From NCBI GenBank assembly GCA_044892525.1, contig CM097885.1:9054001-9118000 (forward strand): a stretch of 64,000 nt of DNA, in the 5' to 3' direction. The notes under the pieces were generated by a model that did no database searches, was not told where the DNA came from, and saw only the letters and a list, made by a program, of their open reading frames with translations. This document shows positions 38,656-52,331 of this stretch, one piece after another; the first letter of the stretch is position 1, and each line of letters opens with the position of its first letter. Both the position numbers and the translations under genes were made by a program. This DNA comes from Schmidtea polychroa (Eukaryota).

Positions 38656-39055
38656 TCATACTTTTTAAATATATTACGTTGCGTTATTTTAATTTTAAAT
38701 ATATTTTAAAGTAGGTAGTTAGTGGCTTACGGCAGCAATAGGGGGGGGGGGGGTAAAAATGTTGCAAACTTTTGATTGCATAACTTTTTCCGTAGACATT
38801 TTTTGATTACATAATTGTTGCCGTAATGCCCAATGTTTTCTGGGATTTTAAATACAAAATTTTTTTTTTTTTTTTTTTTTTTTTCAATAAACAAGCCAAG
38901 GATAAATATTATTTGGGTGGGTCTCCTTGGTCCTGAGAATTTCAATAGAAAAAGGTAGTCTTCAATAAAAAAGCATGGATTTTTCACACTATAGTGAGGG
39001 GATCTTCTTGGTCATGAGAATTTCAATAGAAAAGGTGGTTTACATTAAAAAACGC

Positions 39056-39864
39056 ATAGTAAATTTTTAAAATAAAGCAAATTATGGGTCTAAAATTTAA
39101 AAATAAAGTAAATGATGGGTCTAAAAATTTAAGTAAATCAAGGTTCAGATTTATTTTTGAAATAAAGTAAATTATGGTCTAAATAAGTAAATTATGGGCT
39201 AAGATTTTTCAATTAAAGTAAATAATGGTTCTAAAAAATTAAATTACAGTAAATTATGGTCCAAATTTTTAAATTAAAGTAAATTATGGTTCTTAAAAAT
39301 TAAATTAAAGTAAATTATGGTCAAAATTTTTGAATTACAGTCCAAAAATTTAAATTAAAGTAAATTATGATCCAAATTTTTAAATTAAAGTAAATAATGG
39401 TTCTAAAAAATTAAATTAAAGTAAATAATGGTCCAAATATTTTAAATTACAGTAAATAATGGTTCTAAAAATTAAATTACAGTAAATAATGGTCAAAAAT
39501 TTTAAAATTAAAGTAAATTATGGTTCTAAAAATTAAATTAAAGTTAATTAAGGTCCAAATTTTAAAATTAAATAATCAATGGTAAAAAAAATTTAAATTA
39601 AAGTTAAATAAGTAAATTAAAGTAATAATTTTTAAATAAGTAAATTAAAGTAATGTAATAAGTAAATTAAAGTAAGATTTTTAAATTTATTAACAAAAAT
39701 AGAAGGTGTTTGAGAATTGAAATTTTTTAATGGAAATTTTAATGAATTATTTTTTAAGTAATTTTTAATAGAAATTTTTATGAATAATTTTCAATGGTAA
39801 TTTTTAATGGAAATTTTAATAGAATAATTTTTAAGATAATTTTTAATGAAAATTTTTATGAAAT

Positions 39865-39865
<1 letters not shown>
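39056..39865 (-). repeat. Subterminal 30-bp repeat module of element C, left arm
   Basis: Reverse complement of 50886-51690; same monomer as the 4040-11235 satellite. Confidence 0.9.
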
Positions 39866-39923
<58 letters not shown>

Positions 39924-40183
39924 TAATATTAATAATATATCAACCAAATACTATACAACACATAAAAAATTAACTAAACACATAAAAATAACTAGGCACA
40001 TAACAAAACATATAAACATTAACTAAACACATAAAAATGAACTAGACACATAACAAACATAAAAATTTACCAAATAACAAATGTAAAGATATAAAATTTA
40101 TTCAATAAAATTAGTCCTCATCGGACAAAATAACGTCATCGATATCGATGTCATCTTCTCCAAAATCTTCATTTAATTCTTCC

Positions 40184-50561: not shown

Positions 50562-50821
50562 GGAAGAATTAAATGAAGATTTTGGAGAAGATGACATCGA
50601 TATCGATGACGTTATTTTGTCCGATGAGGACTAATTTTATTGAATAAATTTTATATCTTTACATTTGTTATTTGGTAAATTTTTATGTTTGTTATGTGTC
50701 TAGTTCATTTTTATGTGTTTAGTTAATGTTTATATGTTTTGTTATGTGCCTAGTTATTTTTATGTGTTTAGTTAATTTTTTATGTGTTGTATAGTATTTG
50801 GTTGATATATTATTAATATTA

Positions 50822-50885
<64 letters not shown>

Positions 50886-50886
<1 letters not shown>

Positions 50887-51690
50887 ATTTCATAAAAATT
50901 TTCATTAAAAATTATCTTAAAAATTATTCTATTAAAATTTCCATTAAAAATTACCATTGAAAATTATTCATAAAAATTTCTATTAAAAATTACTTAAAAA
51001 ATAATTCATTAAAATTTCCATTAAAAAATTTCAATTCTCAAACACCTTCTATTTTTGTTAATAAATTTAAAAATCTTACTTTAATTTACTTATTACATTA
51101 CTTTAATTTACTTATTTAAAAATTATTACTTTAATTTACTTATTTAACTTTAATTTAAATTTTTTTTACCATTGATTATTTAATTTTAAAATTTGGACCT
51201 TAATTAACTTTAATTTAATTTTTAGAACCATAATTTACTTTAATTTTAAAATTTTTGACCATTATTTACTGTAATTTAATTTTTAGAACCATTATTTACT
51301 GTAATTTAAAATATTTGGACCATTATTTACTTTAATTTAATTTTTTAGAACCATTATTTACTTTAATTTAAAAATTTGGATCATAATTTACTTTAATTTA
51401 AATTTTTGGACTGTAATTCAAAAATTTTGACCATAATTTACTTTAATTTAATTTTTAAGAACCATAATTTACTTTAATTTAAAAATTTGGACCATAATTT
51501 ACTGTAATTTAATTTTTTAGAACCATTATTTACTTTAATTGAAAAATCTTAGCCCATAATTTACTTATTTAGACCATAATTTACTTTATTTCAAAAATAA
51601 ATCTGAACCTTGATTTACTTAAATTTTTAGATCCATCATTTACTTTATTTTTAAATTTTAGACCCATAATTTGCTTTATTTTAAAAATTT
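50886..51690 (+). repeat. Subterminal 30-bp repeat module of element C, right arm
   Basis: Lead-in and monomer match 3865-4300. Confidence 0.9.
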
Positions 51691-52331
51691 ACTATGCGTT
51701 TTTTAATGTAAACCACCTTTTCTATTGAAATTCTCATGACCAAGAAGATCCCCTCACTATAGTGTGAAAAATCCATGCTTTTTTATTGAAGACTACCTTT
51801 TTCTATTGAAATTCTCAGGACCAAGGAGACCCACCCAAATAATATTTATCCTTCGCTTGTTTATTGAAAAAAAAAAAAAAAAAAAAAAAATTTTGTATTT
51901 AAAATCCCAGAAAACATTGGGCATTACGGCAACAATTATGTAATCAAAAAATGTCTACGGAAAAAGTTATGCAATCAAAAGTTTGCAACATTTTTACCCC
52001 CCCCCCTATTGCTGCCGTAAGCCACTAACTACCTACTTTTTAAATACTTATTTTGACGCTAAAGTCGACAGAAAAAAATTATTGCATATACTTTGCACAT
52101 ACTTTGCAATATTATTATTATTATATATAGTCTGAGTTTATCCGACAAGATATTCTGTCCCCCTATGGGTACTGCTTACAAAGGTACTGCTAAAAAATAT
52201 TCAAGGCAAAACTTTAACATATTATTATTACACACACACACACATATAATGTATAAAAAATTGTTCACAAAGGTACTGCTAAAAAACTCAAGGCAATAAA
52301 ATCAATACATTTATTAAATAATTTAACCACA

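What the first reader, a model, noticed from the sequence alone, without database searches (positions are those of the whole stretch)
38704..52043. A 13.3 kb palindromic, polymerase-only element that integrated as one unit
Seen: two ~6.2 kb inverted arms, each with one pPolB and no integrase, capsid, ATPase or protease. The ends are AGTAG..CTACT and the flanks are a perfect TTTTAA/TTTTAA. The joined flanks (38673-38709 plus 52044-52068) align with an uninterrupted paralogous sequence at 35277-35339, i.e. an empty site. The arms differ by a few SNPs (e.g. DDKS vs DDKR) and microsatellite lengths, and share the same N-terminal stop and frameshift. Known: Polintons have AG..CT ends, 6-bp target-site duplications and TIRs typically around 1 kb or less. 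Inference: a snap-back/copy-back genome (one end plus polymerase copied back on itself, like a defective-interfering genome or hairpin-replicon dimer) integrated in trans by a helper Polinton integrase. It could be a non-autonomous replicon class, and a source of long dsRNA against pPolB.
Basis: partly seen in the sequence, partly recalled or inferred. Interest (0 to 1): 0.9.

Follow-up and report, generated by a model that had tools for sequence, protein, structure and literature searches.

The report
Palindromic polymerase-only Polinton satellite family
This 13.3-kb stretch is one of a few hundred hairpin-shaped jumping elements in an animal genome that carry two mirror copies of a virus-like DNA polymerase gene and nothing else, and they seem to copy themselves while borrowing the insertion enzyme of complete Polinton transposons.

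Summary
Confirmed, and bigger than reported. The element (38710-52037) has two ~6.15-kb arms differing by 4 substitutions and 3 indels. Its 6-bp target duplication is proven by three 99%-identical empty-site paralogs. It belongs to a family with 357/354 end matches. Of 32 other loci fetched, 30 are palindromes, 27 carry pPolB in both arms, and none has its own integrase or capsid; 29 of 31 scored have perfect duplications. Arms cluster by copy (0.018% within, 0.96% between). pPolB is under purifying selection across palindromic subfamilies (dN/dS 0.12-0.21) and only 62-66% identical to sampled full Polintons, so this is an old replicon lineage, not a one-off defective genome. The centre is bounded by a second pair of Polinton-type ends, a likely fold-back pivot. 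Best reading: protein-primed replication through a hairpin with arm regeneration, and integrase supplied in trans (0.62). Polymerase-less integrase/capsid elements also exist, so a split Polinton is not excluded. The scan had noted gene-less palindromic relatives here and in two other genomes; ten literature searches found no description. No long-read or RNA proof.

The parts
38704..38709 (.). Left copy of the 6-bp target-site duplication
   Evidence: single copy in empty-site paralogs L051-L053
38710..44859 (+). Left arm, from the outer Polinton-type end to the centre
   Evidence: arm alignment; borders
38710..39050 (+). Outer end: AGTAG start, G run, about 340 bp shared with the non-coding palindromes of the family
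39060..39870 (.). Subterminal ~30-bp minisatellite (mirror at about 50880-51690; expanded array at about 3850-11240)
40184..43907 (-). pPolB gene of the left arm, pointing outward; broken by a stop and a frameshift (frames 43203-43733 and 40184-43246)
   Evidence: the 5' limit is estimated from the frame comparison
44318..44800 (.). Three ~144-bp tandem repeats upstream of pPolB (mirror at 45946-46427); about 90% like 35796-36240 in a neighbouring Polinton relic; putative promoter region (inferred)
44860..45885 (.). Centre: 1,026-bp unit bounded by a second (type A) pair of Polinton-like ends, with inverted rather than direct flanks; proposed fold-back pivot
   Evidence: 85.6% over 347 bp to the end of a pPolB-bearing Polinton in L067
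45886..52037 (-). Right arm (mirror of the left arm)
46838..50561 (+). pPolB gene of the right arm: stop at 47009-47011, frameshift in the A run near 47500, frames 47012-47542 and 47499-50561; exonuclease and polymerase motifs present
   Evidence: the 5' limit is estimated
52038..52043 (.). Right copy of the 6-bp target-site duplication

Best explanation
A satellite lineage of Polintons reduced to the replication function. SHOWN: a palindrome of two outer ends, two outward-pointing pPolB genes and a short centre bounded by a second pair of Polinton ends has inserted hundreds of times with 6-bp duplications; arms evolve together within each copy; pPolB is conserved by selection. INFERRED: the element replicates outside the chromosome as a linear DNA primed by terminal protein at its ends. 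The displaced strand folds into a 6-kb-stem hairpin, and fold-back or strand exchange at the centre rebuilds one arm from the other before insertion, much as paired LTRs are equalised. INFERRED: the double-stranded product is inserted by the retroviral-type integrase of co-resident Polintons, whose ends share the first 6-9 bases. Broken copies such as this one were probably moved with polymerase from intact copies. INFERRED origin: a small element with Polinton ends landed just upstream of pPolB, and its inverted ends let the nascent strand turn back and copy the pPolB end again.
For: Empty sites and duplications (25 of 26 perfect; 3 of 4, the fourth with one mismatch; one more perfect). Palindromic in 30 of 32 loci. 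Of 144 scored pPolB matches, 114 form 57 divergent pairs, and 38 of 57 have the same open-frame length in both arms against a shuffle mean of 4.9, maximum 14. Within-copy divergence is 0.018% against 0.96% between copies, and 30 copy-private alleles lie in both arms against 25 in one. 10 of 15 broken copies have the same breaks in both arms. pN/pS is 0.20 for shared variants (p 2e-7), and dN/dS is 0.12-0.21 with dS up to 0.16 between subfamilies. 9 of 24 copies have an uninterrupted frame in both arms. Two centre types, both bounded by Polinton-like ends with inverted flanks; a free ~0.9-kb type-A mini-element with its own direct duplication. Full Polintons with integrase and AGTAG ends are abundant. 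A copy whose arms come from two subfamilies (14 differences) still has a perfect duplication (L085/86), which argues against strong conversion after insertion.
Against: No extrachromosomal form, terminal protein, expression or integrase specificity was shown. Gene conversion after insertion, or polishing of the assembly, could equalise arms. No full Polinton with exactly the family's end sequence was found; the closest of 6 sampled shares 9 bases. No clean half-element (one arm plus centre with a direct duplication) was found among 5 candidates. Only about 33 of roughly 350 copies were read, all on contig C1. A closer full-length parent among thousands of unsampled Polinton copies is not excluded.
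Confidence: 0.62

Rival explanations
1. Passive passenger: the palindromes are copied and inserted wholly by helper Polintons, and the arms are kept alike by gene conversion in the chromosome, as in Y-chromosome palindromes (recalled).
For: Gene-less palindromes with the same ends spread without any gene (3 of 32 loci), as do gene-less ones with type-A ends. 15 of 24 pPolB copies have a break.
Against: dN/dS 0.12-0.21 across palindromic subfamilies. The chimeric copy keeps 14 arm differences. Large nested insertions sit in one arm only.
Confidence: 0.15
2. Recurrent defective-interfering products: an unsampled full-length Polinton with this pPolB keeps throwing off copy-back genomes, and the selection seen acted in that parent.
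For: Fold-back is common in this genome: one palindrome folds inside the capsid gene, two short ones fold inside pPolB. Only 6 capsid-bearing loci out of 3,465 first-look candidates were read.
Against: No locus reached by end sequence (32) or by pPolB identity had its own integrase or capsid. 4 of 5 apparent singletons proved to be palindromes. All four end variants sampled are palindromic.
Confidence: 0.1
3. Split (bipartite) Polinton: the polymerase palindrome and the polymerase-less ATPase-integrase-capsid-protease element are two segments that depend on each other.
For: Four ~15-kb elements carry ATPase, integrase, both capsids and protease but no pPolB. Their diagnostic junction has 19 full-length matches at 96-100% among 40 scored candidates. 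The integrase frame is uninterrupted in 4 of 4 of them against 1 of 6 full Polintons. Their type-A ends (verified with a duplication in one) are the ends found at the palindrome's centre. Both are of normal Polinton size.
Against: Their outer ends differ from the palindrome's outer ends. Full Polintons are far more numerous and could serve both. The split integrase frames could be introns or microsatellite slippage. No co-expression or co-packaging data.
Confidence: 0.1
4. Assembly artefact (fold-back chimeric reads).
For: No read or contig spanning the palindrome was available. The window copy lies in a 99.9-100% identical inverted array.
Against: Direct 6-bp duplications at 29 of 31 scored sites, exact empty sites, recurrent centres, arm differences and a chimeric copy cannot come from random fold-back reads.
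Confidence: 0.03

Closest known systems
Polintons/Mavericks (polintoviruses)
   Same: pPolB, AG..CT ends, 6-bp target duplication, 13-16 kb size. Published ranges: 13-25 kb, 100-1500-bp TIRs, 5-8-bp TSD (10.1101/2023.08.22.554363, passages read); 6-bp TSD and 584-bp TIR in the anole element (PMC3014272, passages).
   Different: No integrase, ATPase, protease or capsid, whereas PMC4405056 (passages) lists pPolB, integrase, ATPase and protease as shared by all Polintons. Inverted repeats of 5-8 kb contain the polymerase gene, so it is present twice. A second pair of ends lies at the centre.
C. elegans Polinton remnants with pPolB1 and TIR but no integrase
   Same: pPolB next to a Polinton end without integrase, at 10 loci (10.1101/2024.01.15.575659, passages).
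   Different: Described there as remnants of the pPolB end; the passages read describe no amplified palindromic family, and 'palindrom' does not occur in the main text.
Snap-back defective viral genomes
   Same: One end copied back on itself to give a nearly complete palindrome (PMC13506859, passages).
   Different: Described mainly for RNA viruses and as non-coding. Here the palindrome is DNA, chromosomally integrated, inherited, and keeps a polymerase under selection.
Palindromic amplicons of terminal-protein replicons (phi29 in vitro, adenovirus inverted-repeat vectors, Streptomyces palindromic linear plasmids)
   Same: Recalled, not read (look-ups failed): inverted duplication of one end by template switching, replication through hairpins. 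PMC4974454 (passages) reports subgenomic phi29 molecules from one end and possible template switching.
   Different: Those are laboratory or transient products without integration; this is a natural multi-copy lineage.
Linear plasmids (invertrons) encoding pPolB
   Same: Polymerase-centred linear replicon without capsid (recalled; link to Polintons reviewed in PMC4405056, passages).
   Different: Nuclear chromosomal insertions with 6-bp duplications, and almost the whole element is inverted repeat.

Membership tests
Autonomous Polinton/Maverick | Protein-primed family B polymerase | tested here: met
   PF03175, E 5e-31; exonuclease and polymerase motifs; broken in this copy, uninterrupted in both arms in 9 of 24 copies
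Autonomous Polinton/Maverick | Retroviral-type integrase gene | tested here: not met
   No hit in the element or within 32 related loci, except a nested unrelated Polinton in one; the same queries do hit the full Polintons
Autonomous Polinton/Maverick | Packaging ATPase, protease, capsid genes | tested here: not met
Autonomous Polinton/Maverick | AG..CT ends and 6-bp target duplication | tested here: met
   29 of 31 scored copies perfect; exact empty sites
Autonomous Polinton/Maverick | Terminal inverted repeats of 0.1-1.5 kb around a unique gene block | tested here: not met
   Arms 3.4-8 kb, unique part 0.05-1.3 kb when no insertion is present
Non-autonomous Polinton derivative | Polinton ends, missing core genes, multiple independent insertions | tested here: met
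Non-autonomous Polinton derivative | Mobilised by a helper's integrase | not testable with these tools
   Inferred from the 6-bp duplications and the shared first 6-9 bases of the ends
Snap-back defective-interfering genome | Near-complete inverted duplication of one end | tested here: met
Snap-back defective-interfering genome | Derived from a co-existing parental genome of nearly the same sequence | tested here: inconclusive
   Nearest full Polintons sampled are 62-66% identical in pPolB; sampling was small
Snap-back defective-interfering genome | Interferes with helper replication | not testable with these tools
   No functional data
pPolB linear plasmid | Free linear DNA with protein-bound 5' ends | not testable with these tools
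   Only chromosomal copies were seen

The most novel reading that the evidence does not exclude
A Polinton has split into complementary modules in this animal. A self-replicating palindromic polymerase segment and a polymerase-less integrase/capsid segment complement each other in trans, together with gene-less palindromic satellites. That would be a segmented, hairpin-replicating polintovirus system and a living intermediate between Polintons and polymerase-only linear plasmids.
Probability: 0.15. Interest if true: 0.92.

Novelty: new variant of a known kind. Interest (0 to 1): 0.78.

Why it matters
How Polintons replicate has never been shown; the hairpin ('racket') intermediate is a model (recalled). 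A family whose two 6-kb arms are reset to identity copy by copy is a genomic record of that intermediate, gives an LTR-like clock for dating insertions, and points to a concrete molecule to look for. It also shows that Polinton functions can be divided among separate elements (polymerase-only, polymerase-less, gene-less), which bears on how linear plasmids and satellite viruses arise. A few hundred 13-16-kb palindromes amount to several megabases of potentially unstable DNA, and the window copy sits at the fold of a host-DNA inverted amplification.

Tried and rejected
1) Half-element monomer (one arm plus centre with a direct duplication): 5 candidates checked; 3 were ordinary palindromes, 1 was unresolved, 1 was fused to another end; none found. 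2) Full-length parent with the same ends: long end pairs (22-38 kb) proved to be palindromes with nested insertions or two neighbouring elements. A related end variant gave 32 scattered matches and was not followed. 3) Sequencing runs: no RNA holder listed, which says nothing on expression. Contigs of 4 runs covered 30, 30, 30 and 19 of 30 bins of centre plus right arm, but none spans the stretch, so they neither prove nor refute the palindrome. 5) Literature: ten searches on Polinton/Maverick with palindromic, non-autonomous, long inverted repeats, foldback, racket, planarian terms and on terminal-protein palindromes found no such family. For most hits I saw only listings and abstract starts. 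Passages were read in 10.1101/2023.08.22.554363, 10.1101/2024.01.15.575659, 10.1101/2022.07.12.499685, 10.64898/2025.12.11.693146, PMC3014272, PMC13506859, PMC4405056, PMC4974454 and PMC6431247 (also its section 10). Repbase, subscription journals and all supplements were not seen and could hold a prior description. The host taxon was not determined; planarian terms were a recalled guess. 6) A count of how many flanking hexamers are distinct was not computed; they are printed. 7) No structure prediction was run; it would not separate the rivals.

Full report
OBSERVATION. The element spans 38710-52037, between identical 6-bp direct repeats. The arms differ by 4 substitutions and 3 indels in simple runs; 19 further mismatches cluster in 44877-44941. 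Each arm has one outward-pointing pPolB (PF03175) with the same stop and frameshift. The target is a relic of another Polinton: capsid and protease fragments lie to the left and polymerase fragments to the right. Three tandem paralogs of that relic at G000:C1:8.84 Mb run straight through the site with one copy of the hexamer, which proves an insertion with a 6-bp duplication.

A FAMILY. The exact 27-base end has 140 forward and 142 reverse matches in the 781-Mb genome; a pattern allowing the variants seen gives 357 and 354, with 0 for the reversed control. I fetched 32 other loci, all on contig C1: 22 reached by ends (one 38-kb pair held two elements) and 10 by pPolB matches. Thirty are palindromes with arms of 3.4-8 kb, one has lost most of one arm, and one is a single arm fused to another end. 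Twenty-seven carry pPolB in both arms (two of them truncated by a fold inside the gene) and three are gene-less. None has its own integrase, ATPase, protease or capsid; one holds a nested unrelated full Polinton. The same queries readily hit full Polintons. Duplications are perfect in 25 of 26, 3 of 4 and one more. The exceptions are a mirror duplicate of the window copy and a one-base mismatch; the fused half was not scored. A 267-aa pPolB query returned 144 scored matches of 11,117 candidates, all 100% identical. Of these, 114 form 57 divergent pairs within 25 kb, and 4 of 5 apparent singles fetched were also palindromes.

ARMS EVOLVE TOGETHER. Over 2.8 kb of pPolB in 22 copies, median divergence is 0.018% within a copy and 0.96% between copies, and the tree groups arms by copy, not by side. 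With the mirror duplicate dropped, 30 copy-private alleles are in both arms and 25 in one. Open-frame length is equal in both arms in 38 of 57 pairs (shuffle mean 4.9, maximum 14). Of 24 independent copies, 9 are uninterrupted in both arms and 15 have a break; 10 of the 15 have the same breaks in both arms, 1 shares one break and has an extra, and 4 differ. One copy has arms from two subfamilies, different end variants and a perfect duplication, so arms are not always equalised after insertion. Assembly polishing could lower arm differences, and I could not test that.

THE POLYMERASE IS MAINTAINED. Among 21 copies, shared variants give pN/pS 0.20 (20 non-synonymous, 25 synonymous; p 2e-7) and singletons 0.51 (24 and 12; p 0.045); the difference between the two classes is not significant (p 0.07). 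Between subfamilies dN/dS is 0.12-0.21 at dS 0.04-0.16, and synonymous sites are saturated against the two full-Polinton types tested. The palindromic pPolBs form one clade (support 1.0), sister to the commonest full family sampled (0.98), at 62-66% identity to the full Polintons. The best outside protein is 60% identical. I did not test this.

THE CENTRE. The 1,026-bp centre begins and ends with a second kind of Polinton-like end (type A), flanked by inverted, not direct, sequence. Other subfamilies have a ~0.3-kb centre with type-B ends in the same layout. Type-A ends (548/535 matches) also bound a free ~0.9-kb mini-element with its own direct duplication, gene-less giant palindromes, a pPolB-bearing Polinton end, and a polymerase-less element. 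A single strand pairs from the arms into these ends (no shuffle control at this length). Inverted flanks are what fold-back at a small inserted element would leave; this is inference. I looked for the predicted half-element and found none among 5 candidates.

HELPERS. Capsid matches are very abundant (3,465 candidates, 150 scored). Six loci read have ATPase, integrase, capsids, protease and one pPolB; five show 0.55-0.9-kb inverted repeats with AGTAG ends. None has exactly the family's end; the closest shares 9 bases. Four ~15-kb elements have the integrase/capsid block but no pPolB. Their junction has 19 full-length matches among 40 scored candidates, counting the query and the two arms of one palindrome. 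Their integrase frame is uninterrupted in 4 of 4, against 1 of 6 full Polintons; ends and duplication were verified in only one.

MECHANISM. Most likely (0.62): extrachromosomal protein-primed replication by the family's own pPolB, a hairpin single strand, regeneration of one arm from the other, and insertion by a helper integrase. The structure, mobility, concerted arms and selection are shown; the intermediate, the timing of arm resetting and the identity of the helper are inferred. Rivals are a passive passenger with conversion in place (0.15), recurrent copy-back from an unsampled parent (0.10), a bipartite system (0.10 as the main explanation; it is compatible with the best reading) and artefact (0.03).

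KNOWN RELATIVES AND NOVELTY. It works like a Polinton but fails membership of autonomous Polintons on integrase, morphogenesis genes and repeat layout. It meets the test for a non-autonomous derivative and resembles snap-back genomes in shape only. Ten searches found no published description; Repbase, subscription papers and supplements were not visible. Earlier notes of this scan describe gene-less palindromic Polinton satellites in this and two other genomes, and one mentions polymerase-carrying relatives; these are unchecked notes, and I verified only the same-genome pattern. New here: the exact empty site, the census, concerted arms, selection on pPolB, the nested central ends and the polymerase-less counterpart. 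Verdict: new variant of a known kind, interest 0.78.

Noticed in passing
window 52038-64000, L156, L011/L012, L157: The element sits in a higher-order inverted array: element, 7-kb flank, spacer, mirrored flank, second element whose two arms both match this copy's right arm, flank again, at 99.9-100% identity. Either very recent palindrome-driven amplification or a local assembly problem.
   Followed up: partly
L130/L131, L148-L153: Polymerase-less elements carrying ATPase, integrase, minor and major capsid and protease, joined to the arm of a gene-less palindrome.
   Followed up: partly
L154/L155: A palindrome with type-A ends that folds inside the major capsid gene; its flanks are also inverted for at least 1.3 kb.
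   Followed up: partly
L127/L128, L129, L132/L133, L125/L126; L019/L020, L031-L033, L041/L042: Gene-less giant palindromes of 9-22 kb with type-A ends or with this family's ends; most have perfect 6-bp duplications.
   Followed up: partly
L045/L046, L047/L048: Short (6.9 and 7.4 kb) near-perfect hairpins folded inside pPolB with almost no centre, each with a perfect duplication.
   Followed up: partly
window 18729-32380: A Polinton of a distant group (pPolB 28% identical) with ATPase, integrase bearing a phospholipase A2-like domain, capsid, protease and an adenovirus protein X-like hit.
   Followed up: no
window 3850-11240: A 7-kb array of the same ~30-bp unit that lies inside the element's ends, with a 775-bp higher-order period.
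   Followed up: no
window 58148-58651 and 60963-61466: A MATH/TRAF-domain frame duplicated in the neighbouring inverted repeat.
   Followed up: no
L064, L065, L067, L072 integrase genes: The integrase frame of the commonest full Polintons changes frame at a trinucleotide microsatellite; intron or slippage not resolved.
   Followed up: no
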